From NCBI RefSeq assembly GCF_044324875.1, contig NZ_CP172185.1: 64,000 nt of DNA. One strand, 5' to 3'. The notes beneath the pieces are model-generated. The model saw nothing but the letters and a program-made list of their open reading frames with translations, was not told where the DNA came from and searched no databases. A program made the position numbers and the translations under genes. This DNA comes from Escherichia coli (GTDB lineage: Bacteria; Pseudomonadota; Gammaproteobacteria; Enterobacterales; Enterobacteriaceae). This document shows, piece after piece, positions 6,289 to 18,826 of this stretch (the first letter of the stretch is position 1; each line of letters starts with the position of its first letter).

Positions 6289-7410
6289 TTACCCTTCGAA
6301 GAACCAATACCCGCTATTGACCAGCGCCGCGAGCATCGCGAGGAATGACGGATCTTCCAGCGCATCGCCAAAATTCTCCGCAGTCAGCGCAATGTTGCTG
6401 GCGAGTGCATCCAGTGCCGGACGGTGCGGGGAATCGATCTTCTCACCATTGGCATACACGTCGTCGCCAATGCGCAATACGCGCAGACCACCCAGACGCA
6501 CCAGCACTTCACCTTGTTTCAGCGCATCGTAGATTTCATCCGGCTGATAAGGCGGCTCTGGCGGCGCGATATCCAGTTCATGGCGTGACTGGGATATAAA
6601 CTCCCCAAACCATTGCTTAAAGTGTTCCGGCTGGTTGATCAATTCGAGCATCATCTCACGCAGTTTATCCATCTCTTGCGGCAGAACATCCGCAGGATGA
6701 GCGCGAGGTGAAACATCAGGATCGCTGTAGTAGTTGCCGCCCAGTTCACGTTGCAGCACATAATCGGCAAATCCGCTAATCAGTTCCCGCGTATTTGGTG
6801 CGCGAAAACCGACGGAATAGTTCATCGCATTTTCCAGCGCGTAGCCTTCATGGGGGAATCCTGGCGGAATATAAAGAATATCGCCTGGCTCCAGTTCTTC
6901 ATCAATGATGGCTTCGAACGGATCAACCTGTAACAGATCCGGGTGCGGGCAGTGCTGTTTCATTTGCAGCTTTTCGCCCACTCGCCAGCGACGACGTCCG
7001 GTACCCTGAATGATAAACACGTCGTACTGATCGAGATGCGGGCCGACGCCGCCGCCAGGTACAGAAAAAGAGATCATCAGATCATCAATACGCCAGTCCG
7101 GTAGTTCACGGAACGGTCGCATCAGCGCGGCGGTCGGCTCATGCCAGTGGTTCACTGCCTGCACTAACAATGACCAGTTAGTTTCACCGAGATGATCGTA
7201 GCTTTCGAACGGGCCGTGGCTGACCTGCCATTTGCCATCCTGGTGGCTGACCAGTCGACTGTCGACTTCGCTTTCCATCGCCAGACCCGCCAACTCGTCT
7301 GGAGAGATCGGGTCAATAAAATTATTAAAGCCGCGTTTTAACACCACCGGACGTTTCTGCCAGTGACGTTCAAGAAAATCGGGCCAGTTAAGAGTGAGTT
7401 GGTATTCCAT
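6289..7410 (-). CDS. roxA: ribosomal protein uL16 arginine hydroxylase RoxA/YcfD (cupin-4 JmjC-like)
   Basis: 373 aa starting MEYQLTLNWPDFLERHW, with an HxD...H Fe(II)-binding pattern. Synteny is with pepT and phoQ. Confidence 0.9.
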   Translation of the reverse strand: MEYQLTLNWPDFLERHWQKRPVVLKRGFNNFIDPISPDELAGLAMESEVDSRLVSHQDGKWQVSHGPFESYDHLGETNWSLLVQAVNHWHEPTAALMRPFRELPDWRIDDLMISFSVPGGGVGPHLDQYDVFIIQGTGRRRWRVGEKLQMKQHCPHPDLLQVDPFEAIIDEELEPGDILYIPPGFPHEGYALENAMNYSVGFRAPNTRELISGFADYVLQRELGGNYYSDPDVSPRAHPADVLPQEMDKLREMMLELINQPEHFKQWFGEFISQSRHELDIAPPEPPYQPDEIYDALKQGEVLVRLGGLRVLRIGDDVYANGEKIDSPHRPALDALASNIALTAENFGDALEDPSFLAMLAALVNSGYWFFEG

Positions 7411-7611
7411 GTTAAGCATCCACAGGCTGGTATCTGCAACCGATTATAACGGATGCTTAACGTAATGCGTGAAGTATGGGCATACTTTATCAATTAGTGT
7501 TTTTTGCCGTTTCATAATGTTTCAGGTTGTGCATTATGTTTTTGATTATAAACAAATTTGTGATTTTTCTTGTTCCAGCTTGTTTCACGTTGTAGCCCTT
7601 TGTGCAACGAT

Positions 7612-7637
7612 CGGTGTAGTTAATGGTGTAGTTAATT
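7612..7637. repeat. attL core (26-bp direct repeat)
   Basis: Identical 26-mer at 18721-18746. The flanking 30 bp are weakly similar, including the motif ttgtt(t/c)cacgttgt. Confidence 0.7.
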
Positions 7638-8888
7638 GTGATGACCGGATTCAAAATTATGAGCAGAGCACTTAACAAGCTGAGCGATACACAGCTAAGG
7701 AAAATCAACGGCACACCCGCCCAAAAAACAGCCTTTCTTAATGACGGTGGAAACTTGAGCGTCAGGCATTCAACCAGCGGCCTTTTAACCTGGTATTTCA
7801 CTTACAGGGCCGGAACGGGAAGGGGGGCATCACCGGAACGCATTAAGCTGGGAAATTATCCTGATCTGAGCCTGAAATCAGCCAGGGAAAAAGCCGCCCA
7901 GTGTCGCGCATGGCTGGCTGAGGGGAAAAATCCACGTCATGAGATGAATTACACCGTACAGGAAGCGTTAAAGCCTGTAACGGTTGGCGATGCGCTCACC
8001 TACTGGCTTGAGTCGTACGCAAAGGAAAACCGTGTGGATTATGACCCACTGAAAAAGCGGCTAAATAATCACGTAATACAGCACATTGGCCCTATGCCGC
8101 TGGATAAATGCGAGCTACGGCACTGGCTGGCCTGTTTTGATCGGGTGGCAAAGCAAGCCCCTGTTTCCGCCGGGTTCCTGCTACAGACATGCAAACAGGC
8201 GCTTAAGTTCTGCCGGAAGCGGCGCTATGCAATCAGCAACGTTCTTGATGATATGAGTGTGGCTGACGTTGGGAAAAAACCGGATATAGGCGAACGTGTC
8301 TTAAGTACCAAAGAACTGGGCGAATTATTGCAGGCACTGGACAAAAAAATATTTTCCCCTTACTACGTCGCACTAATCCGCCTCCTGATTGTTTTCGGAT
8401 GCCGGACAGTAGAACTGAGGTTATCGGAGATCGGCGAGTGGGATTTTACCGAAATGCTCTGGACCGTTCCGAAGGAGCACAGCAAAACGAAGGTAGCCAT
8501 ATTCCGGCCCATACCGGAAGCGATACTGCCGTTCGTCACGCAGCTGATGGAGCAGAACAGGCACACGGGCTTATTGCTGGGGGAAGTGAAACAGGAAACC
8601 AGCGTGTCGCAGTACGGCAGATTAGTGCACAGGAGGCTTAAACACCCTCACTGGTCACTGCATGACATCCGGCGCACCTTTACAACGATGCTGAACGATT
8701 TAGGCGTGGATCCTCACGTCGTGGAGCAGCTTACAGGCCACCAGATGCCAGGAATGCAGCGAGTTTATAATCATTCCCGTTATCTGGATGCGAAACGCAA
8801 TGCGCTGGATATGTGGACGGAGCGGTTAGGGATACTGGCGGGAGCACATGAAAACGTAACCACGCTACCAGTAACCAGAAGAAAATAA
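7638..8888 (+). CDS. int: tyrosine site-specific integrase (P4/CP4-57-type)
   Basis: 416 aa. The C-terminal catalytic region reads ...HDIRRTFTTMLNDLGVDPHVVEQLTGHQ...VYNHSRYLD (R..HxxR..Y). It sits immediately inside attL. Confidence 0.85.
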   Translation: MMTGFKIMSRALNKLSDTQLRKINGTPAQKTAFLNDGGNLSVRHSTSGLLTWYFTYRAGTGRGASPERIKLGNYPDLSLKSAREKAAQCRAWLAEGKNPRHEMNYTVQEALKPVTVGDALTYWLESYAKENRVDYDPLKKRLNNHVIQHIGPMPLDKCELRHWLACFDRVAKQAPVSAGFLLQTCKQALKFCRKRRYAISNVLDDMSVADVGKKPDIGERVLSTKELGELLQALDKKIFSPYYVALIRLLIVFGCRTVELRLSEIGEWDFTEMLWTVPKEHSKTKVAIFRPIPEAILPFVTQLMEQNRHTGLLLGEVKQETSVSQYGRLVHRRLKHPHWSLHDIRRTFTTMLNDLGVDPHVVEQLTGHQMPGMQRVYNHSRYLDAKRNALDMWTERLGILAGAHENVTTLPVTRRK

Positions 8889-8936
8889 TTTTTTTCGTGT
8901 TTTTTCAGTATGCGCATACTGGATAAGTGCACAGAT

Positions 8937-8970
8937 ACAACGTGAAACAATAAGCAACAACGTGAAACAA
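8937..8970 (+). promoter_or_regulatory. tandem copies of a 14-bp motif (acaacgtgaaacaa) that may be integrase arm-type sites
   Basis: The same 14-mer occurs in inverted orientation next to attL (7580-7593). It also occurs with one mismatch next to attR (18689-18702). Confidence 0.4.
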
Positions 8971-9262
8971 CCACGAACAAGAGGTCAAAAAGTATACAGA
9001 TTTATAAGTTGCTGATTTTTAATGCTCAACTGGTTTTTTATACATTAGCGAATAACGCTTTAAATAGTGAGAAAAAAGTCATAAAACGAGATTTTATGCC
9101 TTTGCATAATACTGAATTAAAATGATTTTTATTAAAATCACCCCGTTTCTGTAAAATACCCGCCACCAACATTTGCCAACTCTGAATCACCCTGACACAA
9201 TCAGACACATCCCAACGCAATAGAACACGAAATAACTCTTTAAGAAACGAAAGGGGGCAATA

Positions 9263-9451
9263 GTGTTAAGCACTGATCGGTTTATACGTGAAAAAGAATG
9301 CGAAAAGCTAACAGGCCTTAGCCGCTCATGCCGCTACCGCCTGGAAAAGGCCGGACAATTCCCATCACGGCGTAAGCTGGGCGGTCGTTCCGTTGGCTGG
9401 TCTTTATCCGAAGTTCTGGCATGGAAGGAAAGCTGCGAGGCAGTTCACTAA
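9263..9451 (+). CDS. alpA: AlpA-family phage/satellite transcriptional regulator (excisionase-like HTH)
   Basis: 62 aa reading ...EKECEKLTGLSRSCRYRLEKAGQFPSRRKLGGRSVGWSLSEVLAWKE. This is a typical AlpA/MerR-like HTH. Confidence 0.75.
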   Translation: MLSTDRFIREKECEKLTGLSRSCRYRLEKAGQFPSRRKLGGRSVGWSLSEVLAWKESCEAVH

Positions 9452-9777
9452 AAAGACTGGCGGCACACAGCCGCCACCCATCCACTAATACAGAGATTTA
9501 ACCATGAAGACTGGATATACGCCCGAACAGGGGCGGGGCTTCGTTCGGCCTGGTGAAACTGAAAAACAACAAAATCGCGGTTTTTCAGGCATAAAAAAAG
9601 CGGCCCCGATAAGGAGCCGCCTTTCTGAACAATTAACCTACAGCGCAAAAAATGAATCTGAGCAGTGGGATTATATCAACCGTGCAACGAAGCGCCACAA
9701 TTGCCGGATAACGGGCAAAGAAAAGGCCACCTGTCACGGTGGCCAATGTGATCAGTGTGGTGGCTTGCTGGTGGCTA

Positions 9778-9969
9778 TCAACCTTTGGGTTCTATACCGC
9801 GCCGCTTTAGTTCAGCGCGCCCCAACTCTTTAAGCCAGTTGGCTAGGCTTATGCCGTCGCTCTGCGCTTCTTTGTCGAATTGCTCTTTTAGCTCTGGAGA
9901 AATTCGCATTCTGAATTGTGGGGATTGCCCATCACCCTTAGGGCTTTTATCACGTTTGATTGTTGACAA
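9778..9969 (-). CDS. Arc/MetJ-type ribbon-helix-helix repressor, divergent from the main operon
   Basis: 63 aa reading ...RMRISPELKEQFDKEAQSDGISLANWLKELGRAELKR, which is an Arc-like RHH pattern. It is transcribed away from the downstream operon. Confidence 0.55.
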   Translation of the reverse strand: MSTIKRDKSPKGDGQSPQFRMRISPELKEQFDKEAQSDGISLANWLKELGRAELKRRGIEPKG

Positions 9970-10015
9970 GTGGTCACCTATTAAATTAGCCTTTCTATTG
10001 TTAGGTGGTCACCTT
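9968..10015. promoter_or_regulatory. two copies of an aggtgNNcacct-type palindrome (candidate operators) overlapping a ttgaca -35 hexamer
   Basis: aagtggtcacct at 9968-9979 and aggtggtcacct at 10004-10015, 36 bp apart. They lie in the divergent promoter region between the RHH gene and the rightward operon. Confidence 0.4.
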
Positions 10016-10103
10016 AACACGGGGACACTTAAAAAAGCAAAGCCCGAAGGCGCTAGGAACACCAACGGGCTTCTAACCACAAACCGTTATGAGAGGTAGT
10101 TTT

Positions 10104-10301
10104 ATGGCTGTAAGACAGCATACCCCACGACTAGCGCACACACAAACCGCCTTTGTGTGGCGTTTTCTGGCACTGAGTGCCGGAGAATCTCAAATCATCC
10201 ACGTAACCGCCTGGACGGAACGCGAAGCGCGTAGCCGTTGCCCGTCCGGTTGTGTTGCTGTATTCGCCGCCCGTATTCGTCAGGGGGTGTACCATGATTA
10301 A
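10104..10301 (+). CDS. Icd-like small protein (resembles the host cell-division-inhibitor Icd-like proteins of P4-type elements)
   Basis: ...FVWRFLALSAGESQIIHVTAWTEREARSRCPSGCVAVFAARIRQG matches the YVW.F.A.S...ERxAR...AAR pattern seen after alpA in enterobacterial satellites. Confidence 0.4.
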   Translation: MAVRQHTPRLAHTQTAFVWRFLALSAGESQIIHVTAWTEREARSRCPSGCVAVFAARIRQGVYHD

Positions 10302-10662
10302 CCTGTCACTTACCGATCTTAACCGCGTTCAGTTTCGTGAGAAATTTACCGGACAGCTACTCGTCAATGTGGAGAACGGGCGCATAGTGCGTAATTATCA
10401 CCTGCCGGATGGTGCAATTGCCGGAAGCGTTGAAGCATTGCTGGAACTGGCGGAACGTGCGCGACTGATTAAGCCGTCAACGAGCCATCACGATGATGAT
10501 CTGCATTTTACCGGATGTATGGTGAGTCACTACGAAAACGGCGTCGAGGTATCCTGCGAACGGCTGCGTGATGATTGCTGTTTCGGCACACTGCCGGAAT
10601 TTATCGAATTGCTGACCAGTTGCGGATATCAGGTTATTCAGGGGGTGCGCCATGTGCAATAA
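10294..10662 (+). CDS. hypothetical protein (satellite early region)
   Basis: 123-aa ORF from MINLSLTDL. Its start overlaps the previous gene and its stop overlaps the next gene. No recognisable motif. Confidence 0.4.
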   Translation: MINLSLTDLNRVQFREKFTGQLLVNVENGRIVRNYHLPDGAIAGSVEALLELAERARLIKPSTSHHDDDLHFTGCMVSHYENGVEVSCERLRDDCCFGTLPEFIELLTSCGYQVIQGVRHVQ

Positions 10663-11107
10663 CATCCGTCCGGACGCAGCAGGCGAAGCCATCATAACGC
10701 TAATGCACGCGCTGATTGATATTTCATGCACGGCAGCAACCGCAGAAAAACACATTACCAGAGAGCCGGAATATACAGGGGCAATAATCCCGCATTCGCT
10801 GGCCTACGCACAGCTAACCGCTGATATGGCGCTGAATGAGGCTAAAGCCATCCTGATTGCTGATTGTGAAAATGGGGGGGGGGTTATGCGTGATGATCGT
10901 TTTAATTCCCTGAAACAGGAATTTTCCGGCGTTCCTGATAATGCGGCTGATGCGCTTTCGTCAATATCTGAAATTATGCGGGTGGCTTTTTTCTTTCTTT
11001 GCACTGATGAGCACAGGGATACAGGGCTAAATATTCTTGATATCGCCGCTAATTATGCTGATTTCGTAACGGAAACTGTTTTAAGAAAAACGACGGACGG
11101 GGATTAA
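10652..11107 (+). CDS. hypothetical protein
   Basis: 151-aa ORF translationally coupled to its neighbours. No recognisable motif. Confidence 0.45.
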   Translation: MCNNIRPDAAGEAIITLMHALIDISCTAATAEKHITREPEYTGAIIPHSLAYAQLTADMALNEAKAILIADCENGGGVMRDDRFNSLKQEFSGVPDNAADALSSISEIMRVAFFFLCTDEHRDTGLNILDIAANYADFVTETVLRKTTDGD

Positions 11108-11108
11108 T

Positions 11109-11342
11109 ATGCGTGATATTTACCACGAAACAATAGACCGCGCATTTCTTGCACTTTCTCACAGTGAAAATATGTTGGAAATATTGCGCATATGTCTTGA
11201 AACGCTTGGAGATAATGAACGTGATAAACAGAAATCAATGATTGTCACGGCATTAATAACGCTTCTTGAGCCTGTAATAAATGAGTTGCAGGAAATAGAG
11301 ACATTACACGACCAGTATAAAGCGCCCCACACCGGAGAATAA
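11109..11342 (+). CDS. hypothetical protein
   Basis: 77-aa ORF with tight spacing inside the operon. Confidence 0.4.
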   Translation: MRDIYHETIDRAFLALSHSENMLEILRICLETLGDNERDKQKSMIVTALITLLEPVINELQEIETLHDQYKAPHTGE

Positions 11343-11347
11343 AAAAC

Positions 11348-11635
11348 ATGAAAAATAAAAATTCTGGCGTTAATGCCAGCGGCCCCGCTCGTCCTGAAAT
11401 CCGTCCCGGCGATATTTTCCGTGATAACTACGGCGGCACGGTAATGATTAAGGGCGTGGAAGAACGGCGCGTAACCTACCGCCGTGATGGCTACGAATAT
11501 GACTGCGTTATGCCTGTTTATCAGTTCCGGCGTGATTTCACGCTGGTGGGCCATCGTAAAGCCGTTAATCAGAAACGTGCTGCAAGTTATATCCGCAAAA
11601 TCCGTGAAATGCTGGTCGCAGGGGGTAAGAAATGA
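11348..11635 (+). CDS. hypothetical protein
   Basis: 95-aa ORF overlapping the rep start (ATGA). Confidence 0.45.
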   Translation: MKNKNSGVNASGPARPEIRPGDIFRDNYGGTVMIKGVEERRVTYRRDGYEYDCVMPVYQFRRDFTLVGHRKAVNQKRAASYIRKIREMLVAGGKK

Positions 11636-13038
11636 AACTTGCACCGAACGTAAAACTGTTACCGAAAGATAAACACACTGAGGCGGTTATTTTTGCGGGT
11701 GATAATGCTCACTCCTTTGCAGAACATTACATGATTGCACAGGCCAAAAAAGCAGGCGATCCCATCCCTCCGGTTTACCTGGGCCGTTATCAGTTAAGCG
11801 AACTGGACAACTTACAGATTGTTGATGAAGGACGATACAGGGCAAAGGTCATACGCGCCGGAAACCTGGACGATATGCAGATGCTGACCATTGCCACAAA
11901 ACTGGCGATCGCCGGAGTCCAGGAGGCGCGCCTACTTTCTGAAAATTTCGAACTGCTGGAGGACTGGAGCGACCAGCTACCACGACTACGGGAAACATGG
12001 GAGAGAGGGGAAAGCCTGGTCATGAATGGCGGAAAGCGAAAAATCACACTTCCCATCTCATGGGGTTCTGAGGGATTCGATGCGCAGCAAAGCTACGTCA
12101 TTAAGGGGCTTATTCCGGCTGAGTCATTATGCAGCACCTACGGGGCCAGCGGTTCTTATAAATCGTTCCTCGCCATTTCCTGGTCGTGCCATGTTGCCAC
12201 AGGTATGGCATGGGGAGGCCGCAGGGTAAGTAAGGGTGCGGTTATCTATATCGCTGGCGAAGGCAGCATGGGCGTAAAACGCCGCGTTAAGGCGTGGGAG
12301 ATAACCCACGACAAGGTGGTTACAGATTTGTGCATCATTAACGCGCCTGTTTTCCCTGCATCGCCTGACTATGTGGAGCAGGTTATCAGGACTGCCGGAC
12401 TTGTTAAGAGCAGAACGGGCGAAAATGTGCGGCTGATTGTGATCGACACGCTGGCCCGTTGCTTTGGTGGGAATGATGAAAATGATTCCCGTGATATGGG
12501 CGCATTTATCCAGGGGTGTGACGCGATAAAGCAGGCCACAGGGGCCACGGTGCTGGTGGTTCACCATTCCGGCAAGGATGAAACAAAGGGGGCGCGTGGT
12601 TCCAGTGCATTCCGTGCCGCGCTTGATGCAGAGTACCGAATCAGCCGCGAAAATTCAGACGTTACAGCACTGGTCGCAGCATGTACGAAGATGAAGGACG
12701 CAGAGGAGCCAAAAGAGAGCGCATACGACCTTAAAAGCGTGGAGGTGTTCACCGATACAGATGGCGAAGAAATTGTGTCCATGGTGGTGATTGACGTTCC
12801 CCGCGCCCCTGCTGAACTGGAGCGCATCGAGGAGGCAGGCAACAAGACGGAAAACCATACCGCGCTATGGGGGTGCATCCGTTCACGCACACAGAACGGC
12901 GACAAGTGCACGATCCCGCTGTTACGTGATGACATGAAACGGCTTGGGTATGACGTGAAAAATATGCGGCGATGGTTAGCCAAACTGGAAAAAGACGCCG
13001 TGATTTACATTGATGGTGATGATGTAGGACCACTGTAA
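11632..13038 (+). CDS. replication initiator / RepA-like RecA-fold NTPase (AAA_25-type)
   Basis: 468 aa with Walker A YGASGSYKSFLAI, Walker B LIVIDTLARCF and VLVVHHSGKDETKG. These are typical of RepA/AAA_25 helicase-like satellite and plasmid replication proteins. The iteron array follows immediately. Confidence 0.75.
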   Translation: MKLAPNVKLLPKDKHTEAVIFAGDNAHSFAEHYMIAQAKKAGDPIPPVYLGRYQLSELDNLQIVDEGRYRAKVIRAGNLDDMQMLTIATKLAIAGVQEARLLSENFELLEDWSDQLPRLRETWERGESLVMNGGKRKITLPISWGSEGFDAQQSYVIKGLIPAESLCSTYGASGSYKSFLAISWSCHVATGMAWGGRRVSKGAVIYIAGEGSMGVKRRVKAWEITHDKVVTDLCIINAPVFPASPDYVEQVIRTAGLVKSRTGENVRLIVIDTLARCFGGNDENDSRDMGAFIQGCDAIKQATGATVLVVHHSGKDETKGARGSSAFRAALDAEYRISRENSDVTALVAACTKMKDAEEPKESAYDLKSVEVFTDTDGEEIVSMVVIDVPRAPAELERIEEAGNKTENHTALWGCIRSRTQNGDKCTIPLLRDDMKRLGYDVKNMRRWLAKLEKDAVIYIDGDDVGPL

Positions 13039-13237
13039 AAAGTGAGTAGTAAAAGTGAGTAATGGTGAGGTTTTTACAAAATATTAACACAATTACTCAC
13101 TTTCTCACCTGTATACATGCTCAAAAGTGAGCAGTGAAAAAACACTTATGAAACATGCACATATAAAACACAAAAATCTCAAGTGAGACGAAGTGAGACG
13201 CTTTAAAAAGTGAGTAGTAAAAGTGAGAGATGGTGAG
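13037..13237. repeat. iteron-type replication origin (multiple agtgag-based repeats)
   Basis: The 33-mer aaaaagtgagtagtaaaagtgag(t/a)(a/g)atggtgag occurs at 13037-13069 and 13205-13237. Shorter copies are aggtgagaaagtgagtaa (inverted, 13093-13110), aaaagtgagcagtgaaaa and aagtgagacgaagtgagacg, all in AT-rich surroundings. Confidence 0.6.
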
Positions 13238-13239
13238 CA

Positions 13240-13608
13240 ATGAATAAAAACCGAACAGCAGGACAAAATACCGAAGGTAAATTTATGAACACTGAAATTG
13301 AAACACTGAGCATATCAACTGCCCTTCCTGGCTGGTGGGCTAAGTTCAAAGACGACGACGGCACGGAATGGTATAGCCCAATTGCTGCATGGGCGCTTTG
13401 TGATATCCACCATTTCGGCACCGGAGATACTTACCGCGAAATCTTACCCGTGCTGACCAGTGAGCTGGGCATGAGTCCGCATAGTCCTGATGAGGGAATG
13501 TGCGAGTGCCTTTATCTGCCGGATAAGAAGTTTGTTCACTGTGGTGAATCGATGGTATTTGCCTGGTATCCGGTTAACGACAGCAGCAATAGCGGTACTC
13601 TGGAGTAA
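13240..13608 (+). CDS. hypothetical protein
   Basis: 122-aa ORF starting right after the iterons. Confidence 0.45.
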   Translation: MNKNRTAGQNTEGKFMNTEIETLSISTALPGWWAKFKDDDGTEWYSPIAAWALCDIHHFGTGDTYREILPVLTSELGMSPHSPDEGMCECLYLPDKKFVHCGESMVFAWYPVNDSSNSGTLE

Positions 13609-13611
13609 ATC

Positions 13612-13854
13612 ATGAAGGTAAACCACAAAAAGACAGATCACCGCGCCATTGACCTTACAGAGCACTGGCTGAGGGTGGCGATAAAAATCATCGACCGCAA
13701 CACGGGGGAAGGATACGCGAAAGCACATCCCGAACTGATAAGTGCATTCATGACCACAGCGGCGGCAAACTTTGCCACGCTGACAGAGCGGGATATTGCC
13801 GAAGCAGAACAGGTAACAACCATCAACGTTAAAACCAGTGAGGTGGAATCATGA
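13612..13854 (+). CDS. hypothetical protein
   Basis: 80-aa ORF whose stop overlaps the ssb start. Confidence 0.4.
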   Translation: MKVNHKKTDHRAIDLTEHWLRVAIKIIDRNTGEGYAKAHPELISAFMTTAAANFATLTERDIAEAEQVTTINVKTSEVES

Positions 13855-14261
13855 CAGCACAGATAGCGGCTTACGGGCGGCTGGTGGACGACCCGCAGGT
13901 AAAACAGACCAGTAAGGGTACACCGATGACGCTGGCGCGTATGGCGGTATCTTTACCATGCGGCCAGGCACAGGACGGACAGGCGACGTTATGGTTATCG
14001 GTCATCGCATTTGGCAAACAGGCCGACTTTCTGGCTAAACATCAAAAAGGCGACGTTGCCAGCGTATCCGGCACGATGCAGGTCAGCCAGTGGACCGGAC
14101 AGAACGGGGAAACGCGGCAGGGTTATCAGGTTATTGCAGACAGCGTAATCAGTGCCCGTGCGGCACGTCCTGGCGGGAACAGACGCAAAACCACAGGCAC
14201 ACAGGGTAATCAGCCACCAGCGGGAGGCGATGACCCTTACGGTGATGATATTCCGTTCTGA
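13851..14261 (+). CDS. ssb: single-stranded DNA-binding protein (phage-type SSB)
   Basis: 136 aa with an OB-fold-like N-terminus, a Gly/Pro/Gln-rich linker and the canonical acidic C-terminal tail ...DDPYGDDIPF. Confidence 0.7.
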   Translation: MTAQIAAYGRLVDDPQVKQTSKGTPMTLARMAVSLPCGQAQDGQATLWLSVIAFGKQADFLAKHQKGDVASVSGTMQVSQWTGQNGETRQGYQVIADSVISARAARPGGNRRKTTGTQGNQPPAGGDDPYGDDIPF

Positions 14262-14271
14262 GGGGGTGACG

Positions 14272-14544
14272 ATGGTACATGACCGCATAGCGGAGGAACT
14301 CGAGGCAAAAGGATTTTACCGGAGGGCGGCGGCGCGATGGGGTGAAGTTATGAGGCTGGTGAGCACTGACAAGGAGCGCGAACAGGTGGCAATGCGACGG
14401 CTGGAATGTTCCCTGAAGGCACAGAGGCCACCGGAGCCGCCGGATGATTTAGGCGCTCTGAAAAGGTCAGTTAATCGCACTGAAAAACAAATGGGGATAG
14501 CTGGTATTGGCAAAGCAATATGGCGCAACTACCCGCAGAAGTGA
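14272..14544 (+). CDS. PerC-family-like transcriptional activator
   Basis: MVHDRIAEELEAKGFYRRAAARWGEVM... The N-terminus matches the A.ELE..G.xRRAA.RW motif of PerC-type regulators. The longer ORF 14152..14544 overlaps ssb, so the start at 14272 is preferred. Confidence 0.5.
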   Translation: MVHDRIAEELEAKGFYRRAAARWGEVMRLVSTDKEREQVAMRRLECSLKAQRPPEPPDDLGALKRSVNRTEKQMGIAGIGKAIWRNYPQK

Positions 14545-14551
14545 GCACACA

Positions 14552-14622
14552 GCCGGAGCAATCCGGCTTTTTTACGCCTAAAAAAAGCCCGATAAGGTCA
14601 AAGGGGGCTTATCGGGCTTTTG
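14552..14622 (+). terminator. tandem rho-independent terminators ending the early/replication operon
   Basis: agccggagcaatccggcttttttac and aaaaagcccgataaggtcaaagggggcttatcgggcttttgt. Confidence 0.6.
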
Positions 14623-14784
14623 TAGAGGAGGTTTTTTATGGTGCACTGGCACACATGATCGGGATAATCATTTCATAATTTGCAACATAACTCAATATTG
14701 TTGCGCAAAATGCAATCATGATTATAATCAGGACTGGATGAACATCCAGTTATGATTTTTTAAGTCAAAGAGGAATTTCTGACT

Positions 14785-14991
14785 ATGGCAGAAGAGAAAA
14801 AAGGCGGGGTGACGGTCTACATAAGCCCCGACATCGTGGAGGCGCTCAAGGAACGCCACCAGCAGAATGTAAAAGCAGGCATTGCGGCAGGACTTGATCC
14901 GCTGGCGATGGTTGAGCCGTCAACAGGCTGGCAGGTGCGTACCTATTTACGTGCGGCGCTGGGTATCAATCAGGTTCACGGAGGTGAATAA
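14785..14991 (+). CDS. hypothetical small protein, first gene of the capsid operon
   Basis: 68-aa ORF with an RBS (aagaggaa). Its stop overlaps the MCP start (TAATG). It follows an AT-rich promoter-like region (14630-14784) that contains the partial palindrome ttgcaacat...ttgttgcgcaaaatgcaa. Confidence 0.4.
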   Translation: MAEEKKGGVTVYISPDIVEALKERHQQNVKAGIAAGLDPLAMVEPSTGWQVRTYLRAALGINQVHGGE

Positions 14992-16046
14992 TGACAGGCA
15001 AAGCAAAGGCACTTACAACTAACCAGCTTTTCGCGTACCTGAATCGCGGGGATATTTCGGAATATAAATTTAGTCCGCTGTTTACCACGCTGTTTTTCCC
15101 GAACGTGGCGACCTTCAACACCCAAAACATCATGCTGGACACCCTGGACATTGAAGAGGTTACGATGTCAGCGTTCTGTTCTCCTATGGTGGGTAGTCAG
15201 GTCCAGCGCGATAAAGGGTACGAAACCAGCACGATTAAACCAGGCTACATGAAGCCAAAGCACGAAATCGATCCAACAAAGACCATCATGCGCATGGATG
15301 GAGAAGATCCGGCACAGCTTAACGATCCAACTTACCGCCGTATGCGCCTGATTACTGGCAACATGCGCCGCCAGATAAACGCCATTAAGGCGCGCGTGGA
15401 ATGGCTGGCGGTGAATGCGGTAACGACCGGAAAAAACATCATTGAGGGCGAAGGCATAGAACGCTATGAAATCGACTGGAAAATACCGGAAAACTGCATC
15501 ATACAGCAGGCCAGTGGTAAAAAATGGTCCCAGCAGGATAAAGACATGCACGACCCAATCTATGACATCGAGCTTTATGCTGATCAGGCAGGTTGCCCCG
15601 CCAACGTCATGATTATGGGCGGTGAGGTATGGCGCACATTACGCAGCTTTAAAAAATTCCGTGAACTGTACGATCTTTCCCGTGGATCAGAATCCGCCGC
15701 CGAGCTGGCCTGTAAAAACCTGGGCGAAGTGGTGAGCTTTAAAGGCTATCTTGGTGATCTGGCCCTTATCGTCTATTCCGGCAAATACACTGACAGCGAC
15801 GGGACCGAAAAATATTTCCTTGAGCCTGATTTGCTGGTCCTGGGTAACACCAACAATAAAGGGCTGGTGGCATATGGTGCGATTATGGATCAGGAAGCGG
15901 TAAGAACGGGCGCAACGCAAAACATGTACTACCCGAAAAACTGGATTGAGGACGGCGATCCGGCGATTGAGTACGTGCAGACGCACAGCGCACCGCAGCC
16001 TGTACCGGCAGATATTCGCAAATTTGTTACCGTCAAAATTGCTTAA
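14991..16046 (+). CDS. major capsid protein, lambda gpE family
   Basis: 351 aa, alignable over its full length with lambda gpE. Shared blocks include F.PLF..LFF, KPGYMKPKHEIDP (lambda KPGYVKPKHEVNP), EDPAQLNDPTYRRMR (lambda EDPQNLADPAYRRRR), YSGKY, YPKNW..GDPA and SAP. Confidence 0.85.
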   Translation: MTGKAKALTTNQLFAYLNRGDISEYKFSPLFTTLFFPNVATFNTQNIMLDTLDIEEVTMSAFCSPMVGSQVQRDKGYETSTIKPGYMKPKHEIDPTKTIMRMDGEDPAQLNDPTYRRMRLITGNMRRQINAIKARVEWLAVNAVTTGKNIIEGEGIERYEIDWKIPENCIIQQASGKKWSQQDKDMHDPIYDIELYADQAGCPANVMIMGGEVWRTLRSFKKFRELYDLSRGSESAAELACKNLGEVVSFKGYLGDLALIVYSGKYTDSDGTEKYFLEPDLLVLGNTNNKGLVAYGAIMDQEAVRTGATQNMYYPKNWIEDGDPAIEYVQTHSAPQPVPADIRKFVTVKIA

Positions 16047-16057
16047 CGGGGGATTCT

Positions 16058-16393
16058 ATGGACGCTCCATACATTGAGTTATTTTCAGGCAGCCAACAGG
16101 TATCCACGACGCTGGTACATTTTGCCGCTGATGCTGGCGTTATTCAGGAATTTACCCCGCTGATGCTGGCAGACAATGGCGAGTTTAAGCCGTGGGATGG
16201 TAAGGAATCTGGCAAGGCTGTTTATCTGACCTCGTACCCTGTGGACACGTCAAAGCAGAAATCAGCACAGTGTTACAAGACGGGGATATTCAATATTGCC
16301 GCCGTTAACTGGCCTGACAGCGTCGACACCGATGCGAAAAAATGCGCCGCCTTTGCGGGTTCCGGCGTATCCGTTCAGCCGCTGGCCCGATAA
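16058..16393 (+). CDS. head decoration protein, lambda gpD-like
   Basis: 111 aa, the same size as gpD. ...TPLMLADNGEFKPWDG... resembles lambda TPLMLDTSSRKLVAWDG. ...YKTGIFNIAAVNWPDSVDTDAKKCAAFAGSGVSV resembles lambda [35 protein letters not shown]. Confidence 0.7.
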   Translation: MDAPYIELFSGSQQVSTTLVHFAADAGVIQEFTPLMLADNGEFKPWDGKESGKAVYLTSYPVDTSKQKSAQCYKTGIFNIAAVNWPDSVDTDAKKCAAFAGSGVSVQPLAR

Positions 16394-16460
16394 GCAGGGG
16401 GAACGATGGCACAAACCAGGGCGATGACGGCGACATCTATCGCATACTGAAAACCATCTG

Positions 16461-16493
16461 AGACAAGGCCGGAGAAATCCGGCTTTTTTTGCG
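16461..16493 (+). terminator. rho-independent terminator after the capsid genes
   Basis: gacaaggccggagaaatccggctttttttgcgg. Confidence 0.6.
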
Positions 16494-16521
16494 GGTCCTT
16501 TCCGGCATGTGGACCCGTTAC

Positions 16522-16690
16522 GGGGCGTCGACCTCGCACGTTTTCGCTATTTATGAAAATTTTCCGGGAAAAAGCATGTCAGTTCTTCTTGTTATTAACA
16601 TATTGTTTTTAAAGAAATAACTATCAAGAAAGAAACGACATCATAATGATGAAAAATCTGTTTTTTTTGGCATTTCATGTCGTAACTGAT
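16522..16690. other. lambda-type cos site: cosN (cohesive-end sequence) plus cosB-like R3/I/R2/R1 sites upstream of the Nu1 homologue
   Basis: ggggcgtcgacctcgcacgttttcgctatttatgaaaattttccgg is near-identical to the lambda left end GGGCGGCGACCTCGCGGGTTTTCGCTATTTATGAAAATTTTCCGG. Downstream lie gttcttcttgttattaac (R3-like), aagaaagaaacgacatc (R2-like) and catgtcgtaactg (R1-like), separated by A/T-rich spacers. Confidence 0.7.
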
Positions 16691-16710
16691 TTTTGATAAG
16701 GAATTGCTGA

Positions 16711-17295
16711 ATGAATGTTAATAAAAAGAGGCTTGCCGAAATTTTTAACGTGGACCCGCGGACGATTGAACGCTGGCAGTCACAGGGGCTTCCTTGCGTC
16801 TCCAAAGGCAGTAAGGGCATTGAATCTGTATTTGATACTGCCATGGCAATTCAGTGGTATGCGCGGAGGGAAACTGATATCGAAAACGAAAAGCTCCGCA
16901 AAGAACTGGACGATTTGCGTGCGGCAGCGGAGTCAGATTTACAACCCGGCACCATTGACTATGAACGCTATCGGCTCACAAAAGCGCAGGCAGATGCGCA
17001 GGAACTTAAAAACGAGCGCGATCGCGGTGACGTGATTGATACAGAGTTTTGCATGTACGCGCTTTCAAAACTGGCGAGTCAGATTTCATCAATCATGGAC
17101 AGCCTCCCGCTTACTATGCAAAGGAGCTTCCCACAGATGACCCCCGCCATGCTGGATGGCCTGAAAAAAGAAGTTGTCAGAGCCTGTAACGCATGCACAA
17201 AACTTGATGAAAACATCCCGCGAATGCTGTCCGATTATCTGATGGAAACTACCGGAAATGTGCCTGATAAGTTTCAGCCGGATAAAGACAAGTAA
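16711..17295 (+). CDS. terminase small subunit, lambda Nu1 family
   Basis: [30 protein letters not shown]...[48 protein letters not shown]... closely parallels lambda Nu1 (MEVNKKQLADIFGASIRTIQNWQEQGMPV...[48 protein letters not shown]). A C-terminal segment like the gpA-interacting region is present. Confidence 0.85.
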
Positions 17296-17554
17296 CGTAG
17301 TGCACAATGACCGAAGCCAGTTTACTGACTGGCTTTCAGCGTTGCGCTGGTGGGCGTTATGCGTCAGTGATAAACGTCTCCAATATTACTGATATTCGAC
17401 ATCCCCACCTCTCCACACCAGCTCGAATATCATTTTTCTCATTAAAAACAGGACATTAAAAACTGGTCAGATGTCCCATAAAAAGCCAAATGGGACAGGT
17501 CAAAAGCTTTTTTTGCAGTAATTTTCAATAGGTTACTTGATGTGGTGGTGTCCC

Positions 17555-17935
17555 ATGAAAATTCAAAAATCAGCCGTTTTCCGCGATGCTCCCGCCCCGT
17601 GGCAGGGCACCCCACAAGGAGGACCCGCCATCACTATGGAGGACATGACCATGACCGAGACCGAAGCGCTCGGGATAATCCGCAGTATTACCGGAATCAG
17701 CCAGCAGGCTGGCGAACAGGAGGCCACGCAGCCGGACAGCGTGATCGCCGAAAATTACGTGCGTGTTGTTGCTGATGTAATGCGCCGTGATGGTATTGAG
17801 CTTAACGGCGTGGATATGCGCGACATACGAATCAGAGTACTAGAGTTGCTGGCATACCGTCGACGCGTGGCGATGTATCAGGAGAGCGCGAAAAACACTT
17901 ATCAGTGGAAGAAGCCGGAGCGGTTACGGCGGTAA
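17555..17935 (+). CDS. hypothetical protein downstream of terS
   Basis: About 126 aa from MKIQKSAVF. It is Asp/Glu/Arg-rich with no recognisable motif, and occupies the slot where lambda would encode gpA. Confidence 0.4.
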   Translation: MKIQKSAVFRDAPAPWQGTPQGGPAITMEDMTMTETEALGIIRSITGISQQAGEQEATQPDSVIAENYVRVVADVMRRDGIELNGVDMRDIRIRVLELLAYRRRVAMYQESAKNTYQWKKPERLRR

Positions 17936-17939
17936 CTGG

Positions 17940-18265
17940 TTGATATTTTCGAAATTCGCCAGCGGCGAACATCGGGGAAACCAGCCTAACCAGTTGATTC
18001 TTTCGGAAACAGCCATTGGCGGAATCCGGCGCGGTAACTTGCTGATATTCCCGATAACGCAAAATTGCGCTGGCTACATCCCTCACATCTGAGGACTGAT
18101 AATGCGACATTGCGCTGGCTGGCAAAGTGCAAAATTGCACGATGGCCTAACCCATTGATTATTTCGAAAACCTGCAATGCAGGAAATCGGGGAAGTAAGC
18201 CTAAGCTATTGATTCTTTCGGAAACCTCAATTTGAGGAAGTCGGCGCGGTAACTCGCTGAACTTA
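17940..18265. repeat. two ~110-bp direct repeat units with conserved flanks and variable internal palindromes
   Basis: Unit 1 spans 17940-18050 and unit 2 spans 18152-18262. Each contains ttgat(a/t)tttcgaaa, then a perfect palindrome (ttcgccagcggcgaa or cctgcaatgcagg), then atcggggaa..agcctaa..ttgattctttcggaaac, then a second palindrome (gccattggc or cctcaatttgagg), then ..cggcgcggtaact.gctga. The spacer between units carries more palindromes (gcgcaaaattgcgc, cctcacatctgagg, gtgcaaaattgcac). Confidence 0.6.
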
Positions 18266-18720: not shown

Positions 18721-18746
18721 CGGTGTAGTTAATGGTGTAGTTAATT
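18721..18746. repeat. attR core (26-bp direct repeat)
   Basis: Identical to 7612-7637. Confidence 0.7.
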
Positions 18747-18826
18747 TGCGATTTTTGGCACTTTTGTTTGTGTATATTTTTAATTAAATCAATACATTAA
18801 CTAATATCGGTGATAAAAGGGCATAT

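What the first reader, a model, noticed from the sequence alone, without database searches (positions are those of the whole stretch)
9778..10104. Divergent Arc-like repressor with paired aggtgNNcacct operators, a candidate master switch for the satellite
Classical SaPIs use Stl, and Gram-negative PICIs are usually described as AlpA-activated without a dedicated repressor. Here a 63-aa RHH protein is encoded on the opposite strand between alpA and the replication operon. Two copies of its probable operator, 36 bp apart, overlap a ttgaca -35 element. A helper-phage-encoded antirepressor or an SOS-dependent mechanism might lift the repression.
Basis: inference. Interest (0 to 1): 0.5.

Follow-up and report, generated by a model that had tools for sequence, protein, structure and literature searches.

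The report
Hidden Arc-like repressor cassette in PICI
A phage-satellite island in E. coli carries a small, usually mis-annotated Arc-type repressor gene, two matching operators and a previously unnoticed antisense RNA. Together they very probably keep the island's early cell-division-inhibitor and replication operon silent, in a class of satellites thought to lack a dedicated repressor.

Summary
Window 9778-9969 (-) encodes a real 63-aa ribbon-helix-helix protein. Its closest solved relative is P22 Arc. The palindromes O1 (9968-9979) and O2 (10003-10014) are its likely operators.

Evidence comes from 79 genomic and 53 distinct viral relatives. The two sites keep their positions and match each other within each locus. 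Their core changes together with the DNA-reading residues of the beta-strand, giving at least five specificity classes. Two overlapping face-to-face promoters are conserved. The rightward TTGACA is built from RHH codons 1-3.

A SymR-like antisense sRNA of about 79 nt (10109-10031, -) covers the ribosome site and start of the Icd-like first gene. A long stop-free frame runs antisense through the RHH gene, as in P4 eta/kil.

The same cassette sits in the EcCIEDL933-type cf-PICI, where annotation shows a hypothetical plus-strand gene.

"Master switch" is only partly supported. AlpA is necessary and its overexpression sufficient for that island. The cassette also guards unrelated genes such as SymE outside satellites. 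No binding or expression was measured.

Verdict: a new variant of a known kind, namely an immI/P4-immunity-like lock. Interest 0.62.

The parts
9778..9969 (-). RHH (Arc-like) repressor gene, 63 aa, TTG start. Beta-strand is P17-Q-F-R-M-R-I23, followed by helices 25-37 and 42-56.
   Evidence: ORF. 55 homologues. N-terminal conservation. PHROG 228 'Arc-like repressor', 4.6e-7. Profile hit to Arc in the PDB, E 0.0044. AF2 pLDDT 80.6. Foldseek top hits are all Arc, probability 0.95-1.0.
9968..9979 (.). Operator O1. On the RHH strand it reads AGGTGACCACTT. It contains the RHH Shine-Dalgarno sequence (AGGTGA) and the first two bases of the TTG start codon. It lies in the spacer of the rightward promoter.
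   Evidence: In locus L008 the half-site is perfect and the start codon is CTG.
10003..10014 (.). Operator O2, AGGTGACCACCT. It overlaps the -10 element of the RHH promoter and lies just downstream of the predicted rightward transcription start.
9963..9992 (+). Predicted rightward promoter P_R for the Icd-like/replication operon. -35 TTGACA at 9963-9968, 18-bp spacer, -10 TAGCCT at 9987-9992.
   Evidence: The -35 is the reverse complement of RHH codons 1-3 and is present in 52 of 79 genomic and 53 of 53 viral modules. The TA...T positions of the -10 are conserved in the consensus of 30 canonical modules. The generic promoter scan does not flag it. This part is inferred.
10011..10040 (-). Predicted RHH promoter P_L. 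Extended -10 TGTTAAGGT at 10019-10011, -35 TTGCTT at 10040-10035.
   Evidence: The consensus of 30 canonical modules reads TGtTAagGT. Inferred; no transcription start data.
9716..9744 (-). Intrinsic terminator of the RHH gene (hairpin GGCCACC...GGTGGCC followed by a T-run).
10031..10109 (-). Predicted SymR-like cis-antisense sRNA of about 79 nt. The 5' hairpin has the anti-Shine-Dalgarno sequence in its loop. A 3' terminator hairpin and U-run follow. It is complementary to the leader, ribosome site and first two codons of the Icd-like gene.
   Evidence: The covariance model finds it next to the RHH gene in 40 loci (41 hits) that were not used to build it. The antisense strand folds better than its complement in 40 of 40 cases (-32.4 against -20.6 kcal/mol). 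5' hairpin: 89.9% of cells paired, 6 of 11 pairs changed on both sides.
10117..10122 (-). -10 hexamer TATGCT of the sRNA promoter, lying inside codons 5-7 of the Icd-like gene.
   Evidence: The T, A and final T are invariant in 37 of 37 aligned loci, although the overlapping gene belongs to unrelated protein families.
10104..10301 (+). Icd-like (host cell division inhibitor-like) gene, first gene of the rightward operon. The first strong plus-strand terminator downstream is at 14551-14568.
   Evidence: NF033153, 7.8e-18. Terminators. The P4 'cI'/eta-kil ORF carries the same domain.
9263..9451 (+). alpA, convergent with the RHH gene.
   Evidence: PF05930, 5e-18.
9504..10099 (+). Plus-strand frame antisense to the RHH gene. 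It is annotated as a hypothetical protein in relatives. Here a 1-nt deletion near 9773 splits it into 9504-9833 and 9755-10099.
9458..9624 (-). Two further leftward terminators, at 9624-9598 and 9476-9458, between the RHH gene and alpA.
   Evidence: z-scores -3.9 and -3.6.

Best explanation
The locus is a three-part lock on the early operon of a phage-inducible chromosomal island (11.1 kb, att repeats at 7563-7637 and 18672-18746).

(1) A 63-aa Arc-like RHH dimer binds two 12-bp pseudo-palindromes, O1 and O2, whose starts are 35 bp apart. O1 fills the spacer of the rightward promoter P_R (TTGACA-18-TAGCCT). O2 covers the start region of P_R and the extended -10 of the repressor's own promoter P_L. 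The protein would therefore repress the Icd-like/replication operon and also repress its own gene. P_R and P_L overlap face to face, so RNA polymerase can occupy only one at a time.

(2) A constitutive SymR-like antisense sRNA of about 79 nt pairs with the ribosome site and start codon of the Icd-like gene. This blocks translation of any transcript that escapes. It probably also causes polarity on the downstream replication genes.

(3) Induction does not need the repressor to be destroyed. Helper-activated, AlpA-dependent transcription from upstream of alpA runs convergently through the repressor gene into the operon. It is probably translated along a frame kept free of stop codons.

Functionally the RHH is the counterpart of P4's immunity factor at the early promoter inside eta/kil. 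It shuts the early promoter after establishment and gives type-specific immunity, which would explain the multiple co-evolving repressor/operator specificities.

What is shown and what is inferred:
- Shown by computation: the gene, its fold, operator conservation and covariation, conserved promoter motifs, and the sRNA structure and its strand bias.
- Inferred: binding, repression, transcription start points, sRNA expression, the AlpA read-through, and the immunity role.
For: The gene is real and Arc-like. Arc aligns as KGMSKMPQFNLRW against KGDGQSPQFRMRI. This puts RHH Q18, R20 and R22 on Arc Q9, N11 and R13, which are the base-contacting residues of Arc (established knowledge of the 1PAR structure).

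Operators:
- O1 and O2 of one locus match at a mean of 7.96 of 10 positions, against 5.73 across loci. None of 100,000 permutations reaches the observed sum.
- Beta-strand sequence tracks the operator core: QFRMR/QFKMR with GTG(A/G)(C/T)CAC, PFHMR with GTGTACAC, xFQ(I/V)R with GTAC(G/A)(T/C)AC, MFNVR with GTCTATAC, IFSVR with GTCCATAC.
- The pattern is replicated in 53 distinct IMG/VR modules.

Promoter consensus and the TCA codon bias.

Terminator directly after the gene.

sRNA. The K-12 symR region has the same layout. The best model hit there falls exactly on the annotated symR 5' end. SymE toxin genes head some of the related modules.

Operon continuity to 14551.

P4 parallel: an Icd-like domain at the C-terminus of the ORF downstream of vis, and the description of eta/kil in PMC10111431.

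Stop-free antisense frame: present in 19 of 20 alpA-linked loci against 11 of 56 others, Fisher p = 2e-9.

AlpA is necessary and its overexpression sufficient in the EcCIEDL933-type island that carries this same cassette.
Against: No experiment shows binding, repression or expression of the sRNA.

Both promoters are weak by consensus (3 of 6 in each -10 hexamer), and the generic scan misses them.

The outer AGGT of each operator also serves as Shine-Dalgarno sequence (O1) or as part of a -10 element (O2). Part of its conservation therefore has another cause.

The 35-bp spacing puts the two sites about 120 degrees apart on the helix, which does not obviously favour cooperative binding.

Only 218 of 5426 E. 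coli genomes carry this RHH, whereas 1449 match some part of the alpA-to-icd query. It is therefore one of several alternatives, not a universal PICI feature.

The Pantoea clade of homologues has no recognisable O1/O2.

The similarity of the sRNA to K-12 SymR is marginal (8.3 bits, E 0.047).

In this window the read-through frame is broken by a frameshift.
Confidence: 0.65

Rival explanations
1. The cassette is a portable toxin guard: a type I toxin-antitoxin-like module with an added transcriptional repressor. Its job is only to keep a toxic first gene (Icd-like here, SymE elsewhere) silent for the host's sake, or to stabilise the element. On this reading it does not decide the satellite's life cycle.
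For: The same RHH, operators and sRNA head SymE_toxin genes, a 176-aa family and other genes in loci where no alpA or integrase was detected. K-12 symE/symR has the same leader and antisense layout, with a LexA box in place of the RHH operators. Kawano et al. noted RHH genes next to some symE family genes (PMC1891008). AlpA alone controls induction of EcCIEDL933.
Against: In satellites the guarded gene is the first cistron of an operon with no strong terminator before 14551, so replication genes lie under the same promoter. The diversification into several repressor/operator specificities looks like immunity-type selection between competing elements. The position equals that of the P4 immunity region. 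The two readings are not mutually exclusive.
Confidence: 0.2
2. The protein is a HicB-family antitoxin of a type II toxin-antitoxin pair, as NCBI annotation and a recent satellite survey list it.
For: Homologues are named 'toxin-antitoxin system HicB family antitoxin'. Pfam HicB scores 20.4 bits. PMC13612085 lists HicB among toxin-antitoxin accessory genes of PICIs and P4-like elements.
Against: The Pfam score is below the gathering cut-off of 21 and covers only the RHH portion of the protein. The protein is 63 aa with no HicB N-terminal domain. There is no HicA gene; the gene is followed at once by a terminator. The best structural and profile matches are to Arc.
Confidence: 0.04
3. The plus-strand ORF annotated by PGAP is the only real gene here, and the 63-aa minus-strand ORF is a shadow of it.
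For: PGAP calls a 198-aa or 247-aa plus-strand protein in TUM1886 and O157:H7. Substitutions between the window and O157 are silent in both frames. That frame is kept stop-free more often than synonymous shuffles predict (32 against 18.8 +/- 3.0).
Against: The minus-strand product is conserved down to 34% identity across genera as a recognisable RHH fold. It has its own Shine-Dalgarno sequence, terminator and co-varying operators. The plus-strand product matches no Pfam, NCBIfam or PHROG family. Upstream of the overlap it differs completely between close relatives. It is frameshifted in this window, where the RHH gene is intact.
Confidence: 0.02
4. The RHH is a CopG-like copy-number controller of the island replicon. 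On this reading it is a rheostat on rep expression after induction, not a maintenance repressor.
For: CopG-type RHH proteins are among the structural matches. The regulated operon contains DUF4222, a RepA-type helicase and SSB, with iterons at 13033-13237. Autoregulation would make repressor level track gene dosage.
Against: CopG is co-transcribed with rep, whereas this gene is divergent. Arc, not CopG, is the nearest relative. The same cassette controls operons with no replication genes.
Confidence: 0.08

Closest known systems
Phage P22 immI region (Mnt and Arc RHH repressors, overlapping Pant/Pmnt promoters, sar antisense RNA)
   Same: A small RHH repressor whose nearest solved relative is Arc itself. 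The repressor gene is divergent from the regulated operon, as mnt is. Operators sit inside two overlapping opposed promoters. A short cis-antisense RNA covers the ribosome site of a gene in the regulated operon. The P22 details are from established knowledge, not tested here.
   Different: One repressor instead of two. There are two separated 12-bp palindromes rather than adjacent Omnt and Oarc. The regulated first gene is Icd-like, not arc/ant. The antisense RNA is SymR-like and targets the first cistron. The host element is a satellite, not a phage.
Satellite P4 immunity region (vis - eta/kil - CI RNA - eps - alpha)
   Same: Same place in the element: downstream of the alpA/vis homologue and at the head of the replication operon. 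The P4 ORF there ends in an Icd-like domain. An internal early promoter lies within a longer frame that is read from an upstream late promoter (PMC10111431). A comparable long stop-free frame exists here.
   Different: P4 immunity is an RNA (CI) acting by premature termination. No C4, isrK or CI-like RNA is found here, and the sRNA model does not hit P4. Here the factor is a DNA-binding protein plus a cis-antisense RNA.
E. coli K-12 symE/symR type I toxin-antitoxin locus
   Same: An antisense RNA of about 77 nt starts a few bases inside the ORF. Its 5' hairpin holds the anti-Shine-Dalgarno sequence. A GTG(A/G)TTAG linker and a terminator hairpin follow. A TAGAAT-type -10 sits 7 nt upstream. 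SymE-family genes head some modules. The logic of multi-level repression is the same (PMC1891008).
   Different: The transcriptional repressor is LexA in K-12 and the RHH here. The target in the window is Icd-like, not SymE. Sequence similarity of the RNAs is marginal (E 0.047).
SaPI Stl / Gram-positive PICI Rpr master repressor
   Same: A leftward repressor gene lies between int and the rightward excision/replication operon, with a divergent regulatory region (PMC6092414).
   Different: Stl is described as an SOS-insensitive master repressor that is lifted by binding a specific helper-phage protein. This is a 63-aa RHH with no evidence for an antirepressor, and it is subordinate to AlpA in the one tested relative.

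Membership tests
Arc/MetJ ribbon-helix-helix repressors (Arc-like) | Beta-alpha-alpha fold of about 45-50 residues | tested here: met
   The AF2 model has helices 25-37 and 42-56 after an extended 18-24 segment, pLDDT 80.6. Foldseek top hits are Arc chains with target-normalised TM 0.75-0.86 and probability 0.95-1.0.
Arc/MetJ ribbon-helix-helix repressors (Arc-like) | Sequence or profile similarity to characterised members | tested here: met
   The profile of 32 homologues hits Arc in the PDB at E 0.0044 over residues 11-58. PHROG 228 'Arc-like repressor', 4.6e-7.
Arc/MetJ ribbon-helix-helix repressors (Arc-like) | Beta-strand side chains read bases of a symmetric operator | tested here: inconclusive
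   Residues 18 and 20 co-vary with the operator core across five or more classes in two independent collections. This is strong indirect support, but no binding was measured.
Arc/MetJ ribbon-helix-helix repressors (Arc-like) | Dimerisation through the paired beta-strands | not testable with these tools
   Only a monomer could be modelled.
HicB antitoxin (HicAB type II toxin-antitoxin) | HicB N-terminal domain that neutralises HicA | tested here: not met
   The protein is 63 aa. The Pfam HicB match covers residues 17-47 only, at 20.4 bits against a cut-off of 21.
HicB antitoxin (HicAB type II toxin-antitoxin) | Adjacent co-transcribed HicA toxin gene | tested here: not met
   A terminator follows the stop codon, and no HicA-like ORF is present. 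In the EcCIEDL933-type island the next leftward ORF belongs to PHROG 21027, of unknown function.
SaPI Stl-type PICI master repressor | Leftward gene between int and the rightward xis/rep operon, with a divergent promoter region | tested here: met
   Gene order is int, alpA, RHH (leftward), then icd through repA (rightward).
SaPI Stl-type PICI master repressor | Repression lifted by complex formation with a specific helper-phage protein | not testable with these tools
   No helper is known for this island.
SaPI Stl-type PICI master repressor | Sole control point: loss of the repressor, not gain of an activator, induces the island | tested here: not met
   Published work on the EcCIEDL933-type island carrying the same cassette shows alpA is required, and its overexpression suffices (cassette identity).
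SymR-like type I antitoxin RNA | Cis-antisense RNA of about 77 nt starting just inside the target ORF and covering its ribosome site, ending at an intrinsic terminator | tested here: met
   Predicted RNA 10109-10031 with an invariant -10 seven nt upstream, two hairpins and a U-run. Expression was not measured.
SymR-like type I antitoxin RNA | Detectable homology to E. coli SymR | tested here: inconclusive
   The best hit of model R1 in the K-12 region lies at 2336-2377, which is exactly the symR 5' end, but scores only 8.3 bits (E 0.047). There is no Rfam match in the window.
SymR-like type I antitoxin RNA | Target is a SymE-family toxin | tested here: not met
   In the window the target is Icd-like. 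The feature is met in related loci such as L036 (PF08845, 1.7e-16).
P4-type RNA immunity (CI / C4 / isrK) | C4 or isrK family RNA in the zone downstream of alpA | tested here: not met
   No Rfam hit at E <= 1 in window 7000-19500. None in 17 related loci at gathering score.

The most novel reading that the evidence does not exclude
The repressor gene lies wholly inside, and antisense to, a longer frame that is really translated, like P4 eta. That frame starts by translational coupling to the alpA-side genes, and in many elements it runs in frame into the Icd-like gene. On this reading, helper-triggered AlpA-driven transcription and translation through the repressor gene silences the repressor by collision and antisense pairing. 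The same act delivers ribosome-protected transcripts, and a long Icd isoform, to the replication operon. That would be a convergent-transcription toggle built from a bidirectionally coding gene pair. It would also be the missing link between AlpA activation and derepression in Gram-negative PICIs and cf-PICIs.
Probability: 0.3. Interest if true: 0.8.

Novelty: new variant of a known kind. Interest (0 to 1): 0.62.

Why it matters
Gram-negative PICIs and capsid-forming PICIs are described as AlpA-activated, with no known repressor. The stretch after alpA is called a variable gene of unknown function, or is listed as a HicB or YlcI/YnfO accessory gene.

This analysis says that stretch holds a compact immunity-type cassette: an Arc-like repressor, two operators and an antisense RNA. 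The cassette is present in the EcCIEDL933-type cf-PICI. It exists in several mutually distinct specificities, and an analogous YlcI/YnfO-type cassette sits in the same slot of another island.

If confirmed, it would explain several things:
- how these islands stay silent and avoid expressing a cell-division inhibitor;
- why the region is so variable (heteroimmunity between co-resident satellites);
- how P4, PICI and symE/symR regulation are related.

It also gives a ready-made set of natural repressor/operator pairs with a readable recognition code at two residues. Every step can be tested directly with reporters, EMSA and existing EcCIEDL933 genetics.

Tried and rejected
- Rfam scans of the island and of 17 related loci found no C4, isrK or SymR family at the switch. 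They found only tRNA-Sec and the int-alpA RNA elsewhere.
- The generic promoter scan flagged neither P_R nor P_L. These promoters rest on comparative conservation only.
- A LexA-box search found nothing at 9900-10110, so SOS control was rejected.
- RNAalifold on a wide MAFFT alignment mis-aligned the terminator hairpin. I therefore used per-sequence folds, a narrower alignment and a covariance model. Covariation was counted formally only for the 5' hairpin.
- Homology of the sRNA to K-12 SymR stayed marginal, and the model does not hit P4.
- BLASTP of the window Icd-like protein against the P4 'cI' ORF found nothing. The link to P4 rests on both proteins matching NF033153.
- tblastn of the Icd-like protein and of the RHH against GenBank phages gave 1 and 5 records. 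The cassette is therefore rare in deposited phage genomes but common in IMG/VR contigs, many of them short.
- The plus-strand ORF as the sole gene, and the HicB antitoxin reading, were considered and rejected (see rival explanations).
- I did not locate EcCICFT073 itself to see what occupies its slot.
Full report
**Setting.** The window is E. coli chromosome (pepT, roxA/ycfD ... phoQ) with an 11.1-kb island between direct repeats at 7563-7637 and 18672-18746.
- The island encodes an integrase (7638-8888), AlpA (9263-9451) and the minus-strand ORF in question (9778-9969).
- Rightward from there it encodes an Icd-like protein (10104-10301), small ORFs, DUF4222 and a RepA-type helicase (11632-13038).
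- It then has iterons (13033-13237), SSB, PerC, a lambda E-type capsid protein, a D-type decoration protein and a Nu1-type small terminase.
- This is the four-zone Gram-negative PICI layout described in PMC10111431.
- The first strong plus-strand terminator after 10104 is at 14551-14568. The Icd-like gene through perC can therefore be one transcription unit.

- The 63-aa ORF with a TTG start is there. The palindrome pattern matches at 9968-9979 (one mismatch) and 10003-10014 (perfect), 35 bp apart. TTGACA lies at 9963-9968.
- The window-wide count (4 against 1.08 expected; 3 of 100 shuffles reach 4) is not impressive alone.
- A complication arises in the two closest records. These are TUM1886 (97.6% identical) and O157:H7 ATCC 35150. 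PGAP does not call this gene there. It annotates a 198- or 247-aa hypothetical protein on the opposite strand.
- In the window that plus-strand frame is split by a 1-nt deletion near 9773 into 9504-9833 and 9755-10099.
- The few substitutions between the window and O157 are silent in both frames. That pair therefore cannot decide which strand codes.

**Which strand codes?** The minus-strand product is a real protein.
- It has 55 homologues at 63-92% identity in at least ten genera, most of them 63-64 aa. The N-terminal arm MSTIKRDKSPKGDGQSPQF is conserved.
- It matches PHROG 228 'Arc-like repressor' (4.6e-7). A profile of 32 homologues finds P22 Arc as the best solved relative (E 0.0044).
- The AF2 model (pLDDT 80.6) has the strand-helix-helix layout. 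Foldseek returns Arc chains first (probability 0.95-1.0), followed by NikA, AmrZ, CopG, ParG and RHH antitoxins.
- The plus-strand product matches nothing in Pfam, NCBIfam or PHROGs. Upstream of the overlap it is unrelated between the window and O157.
- The NCBI name 'HicB family antitoxin' is not justified. The Pfam score is below the cut-off and covers only the RHH part. There is no HicB N-terminal domain and no HicA gene. A terminator (9744-9725) follows the stop codon.

**Are the palindromes operators?**
- I fetched 77 loci from one-genome-per-species contigs and 80 from IMG/VR.
- Aligned on the RHH start codon, the same architecture recurs. One 12-bp pseudo-palindrome sits at -10..+2 and a second at about -45..-34.
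- The sequence of the pair differs between clades: GGTGACCACC, GGTGGCCACC, GGTGTACACC, GGTACGTACC, GGTATAGACC, GGTCCATAC, GGCATATAC. The two copies in a locus nevertheless match each other. The mean is 7.96 of 10 within loci against 5.73 across loci. None of 100,000 permutations of the pairing reaches the observed sum.
- The core also tracks the protein. The Arc alignment places Q18, R20 and R22 on Arc Q9, N11 and R13. Those are Arc's base-contacting residues (established knowledge of the 1PAR structure, which is among the hits).
- R22 is invariant. Residues 18 and 20 change with the operator:

| Beta-strand | Operator core |
|---|---|
| QF(R/K)MR | GTG(A/G)(C/T)CAC |
| PFHMR | GTGTACAC |
| (T/A)FQ(I/V)R | GTAC(G/A)(T/C)AC |
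| MFN(V/I)R | GTCTATAC |
| IFS(V/I)R | GTCCATAC |

- This table holds in the genomic set. It also holds in 53 distinct viral modules, all 53 of which have both sites.
- This is as good as sequence evidence for a cognate repressor-operator pair can be. It is still not a binding assay.

**Promoters.** The consensus of 30 distinct canonical modules, in RHH orientation from -80 to +9, is: GGGGCgTT..ttTt ... TGtTAagGT....ACCT ... A...Ta ... aTAGGT....AC aTGTCAA.
- Read leftward, this gives an extended -10 (TGnTAAGGT, window 10019-10011) overlapping O2. A TTG-type -35 lies at 10040-10035.
- Read rightward, the first three RHH codons (xTG TCA Axx) spell TTGACA. Ser codon 2 is TCA in 52 of 53 genes that have Ser at codon 2. 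TCA makes up only 15% of Ser codons elsewhere in these genes. Codon 3 starts with A in 72 of 79.
- Eighteen bp downstream of TTGACA lies a conserved TA...T (window TAGCCT, 9987-9992).
- So O1 lies in the P_R spacer. O1 also contains the Shine-Dalgarno sequence and start codon of the RHH gene. This explains the unusual TTG start, which is CTG in L008 where the half-site is perfect.
- The predicted transcription starts (about 9999 rightward, about 10004 leftward) make the two promoters overlap face to face. These assignments are inferences. The generic scan does not call either promoter.

**A third component.** Upstream of P_L on the same strand there is a stable hairpin followed by a U-run, and it is conserved in most loci.
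- Extending the alignment shows an invariant TA...T (37 of 37 loci). It lies 7 nt before the complement of the start codon of the divergent gene, inside that gene's codons 5-7. The gene belongs to unrelated families: Icd-like, SymE_toxin, a 176-aa family and others. Only their first ten or so codons are alike.
- The predicted RNA (window 10109-10031, 79 nt) has two hairpins. The 5' hairpin pairs AGCCA with UGGUU and holds the anti-Shine-Dalgarno CUCC in its loop. The 3' hairpin is a terminator.
- The antisense strand folds better than its complement in 40 of 40 cases (-32.4 against -20.6 kcal/mol). It contains 187 G-U pairs, and its mean z-score against shuffles is -5.0.
- The 5' hairpin is 89.9% paired, against 19-49% when one arm is slid. 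Six of 11 pairs show changes on both sides, and 0 of 500 shuffles reach the covariation score.
- A covariance model built from 28 sequences gave 41 matches in 40 further loci. In the genome loci, where the RHH gene starts near position 4001, they lie just upstream of it on the same strand. The YlcI/YnfO-type island L081 is among these loci.
- The E. coli K-12 symE/symR locus has the same layout: TAGAAT, 7 nt, AGUCAU..., an anti-Shine-Dalgarno loop, GUGAUUAG and a terminator hairpin. It has a LexA box where these modules have RHH operators.
- The best model hit in that region falls exactly on the annotated symR 5' end, but only at 8.3 bits (E 0.047). I call the RNA SymR-like and leave homology open. 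Rfam has no match.

**The plus-strand frame.**
- One antisense frame of the RHH gene is stop-free in 32 of 79 loci. Synonymous-codon shuffles give 18.8 +/- 3.0.
- The excess is concentrated in elements with alpA downstream: 19 of 20 against 11 of 56 (Fisher p = 2e-9; 17 of 18 against 11 of 53 after collapsing identical proteins). In IMG/VR contigs it is 67 of 76.
- In several loci the frame begins by a 1-4 nt overlap with the preceding Bro/Ant-type gene. It then continues in frame through the operators into the Icd-like gene.
- P4 has the same arrangement. The ORF downstream of vis ends in an Icd-like domain. PMC10111431 summarises that full-length Eta is translated only from the upstream late promoter, and that its translation prevents termination.
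- I therefore think the frame is kept open so that AlpA-side transcripts can be translated through the repressor gene into the operon. This is inference. Relatedness among loci inflates the statistics.

**Relation to what is known about PICIs.**
- The O157:H7 island at the same site has capsid, protease, portal, connector, HNH, TerS and TerL genes. This fits the published description of EcCIEDL933. I did not verify the name directly.
- Its RHH is 98% identical and its operators are identical.
- For that island, alpA mutation abolishes induction. An alpA-overexpressing strain is used to drive its reproduction.
- The 2018 paper states that a global repressor in Gram-negative PICIs is unclear. 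The 2025 preprint calls the gene downstream of alpA variable and of unknown function. A 2026 survey lists HicB and YlcI/YnfO as accessory or toxin-antitoxin genes of PICIs, cf-PICIs and P4-like elements.
- I found no paper describing an RHH repressor or this sRNA in these satellites. The library searched is incomplete.
- Another E. coli PICI has, in the same slot and orientation, a YlcI/YnfO-family gene of 59 aa. I read its sequence as strand-helix-helix. It has its own inverted repeats (GTGTAAGACAC) and the same sRNA. The slot thus seems to hold interchangeable small repressors.
- This RHH type is in 218 of 5426 complete E. coli genomes.

**Conclusion.**
- The gene, its Arc-like fold and its two operators are confirmed, with strong comparative support.
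- The most likely function is an autoregulated repressor of the early promoter of the Icd-like/replication operon. A SymR-like antisense RNA backs it up.
- Together these are the satellite's counterpart of P22 immI and of P4 immunity.
- It is probably not the master switch in the Stl sense, because AlpA overrides it. The cassette is also a portable unit used in front of other toxic genes.
- The multiple co-evolving specificities point to immunity-type selection.
- None of the regulatory steps has been measured.

Noticed in passing
window 9504-10099 (+); L004-L079 and L084-L163 around the RHH gene: One frame antisense to the RHH gene is kept free of stop codons far more often when alpA lies downstream (19 of 20 against 11 of 56 loci). 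It often starts by overlapping the stop of the preceding Bro/Ant gene and runs in frame into the Icd-like gene, like P4 eta/kil. In this window a 1-nt deletion near 9773 breaks it.
   Followed up: partly
window 9458-9476, 9598-9624, 9725-9744 (-): Three leftward intrinsic terminators lie in a row between the RHH gene and alpA. The two distal ones have no obvious gene of their own. In the O157 island a 62-aa leftward ORF (PHROG 21027) sits in this interval.
   Followed up: partly
window 12743-12754 and 14933-14944: Two further one-mismatch matches to AGGTGNNCACCT lie inside the island. One is in the helicase gene. The other is about 50 bp upstream of the capsid gene. Their central bases differ from O1 and O2, so binding is doubtful.
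   Followed up: no
L081 2240-2640 (E. coli AST216 PICI): A YlcI/YnfO-family 59-aa gene occupies the same slot and orientation between alpA and an Icd-like gene. It has three copies of GTGTAAGACAC-type repeats upstream and the same antisense sRNA (model hit 2555-2631, E 3.7e-13).
   Followed up: partly
L083 2290-2440 (E. coli K-12 symE/symR): The K-12 symR promoter, 5' end, anti-Shine-Dalgarno hairpin and terminator mirror the sRNA of this cassette. A LexA box (CTGTATATATCATCAG) stands where the cassette has RHH operators. This suggests the chromosomal symE/symR locus and the satellite cassette share an origin.
   Followed up: partly
L036, L038-L041, L044, L051 and similar loci, about 135 bp upstream of the RHH gene on the other strand: In these loci the gene under the RHH/sRNA cassette is a SymE-family toxin (tested for L036: PF08845, 1.7e-16). 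In another group it is a conserved 176-aa protein with no family match. Several of these elements sit next to tRNA-Sec.
   Followed up: partly
L048-L061 and L068-L070 (Pantoea clade): RHH homologues that start MPKTKDR lack recognisable O1/O2 palindromes. The sRNA terminator ends only about 37 nt before the RHH start, which suggests a different arrangement (perhaps read-through expression).
   Followed up: no
window 13033-13237; 17933-18291; 14547-14573 and 16463-16489: Iteron-like repeats follow the helicase gene (probable ori). Repeats follow the Nu1-type terminase gene (possibly a cos region). Two near-identical terminators bracket the capsid module.
   Followed up: no
L008 6889-6957, L015 7090-7158, L079 7143-7212: The Rfam int-alpA RNA motif (RF02996) is present between int and alpA in these related elements. 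It is not detected in the window island.
   Followed up: no
window 10139-10159 (+): A hairpin with a short T-run lies on the plus strand 35 nt inside the Icd-like gene, just upstream (on the other strand) of the sRNA promoter. It is a possible attenuator and is conserved only in the closest relatives.
   Followed up: no
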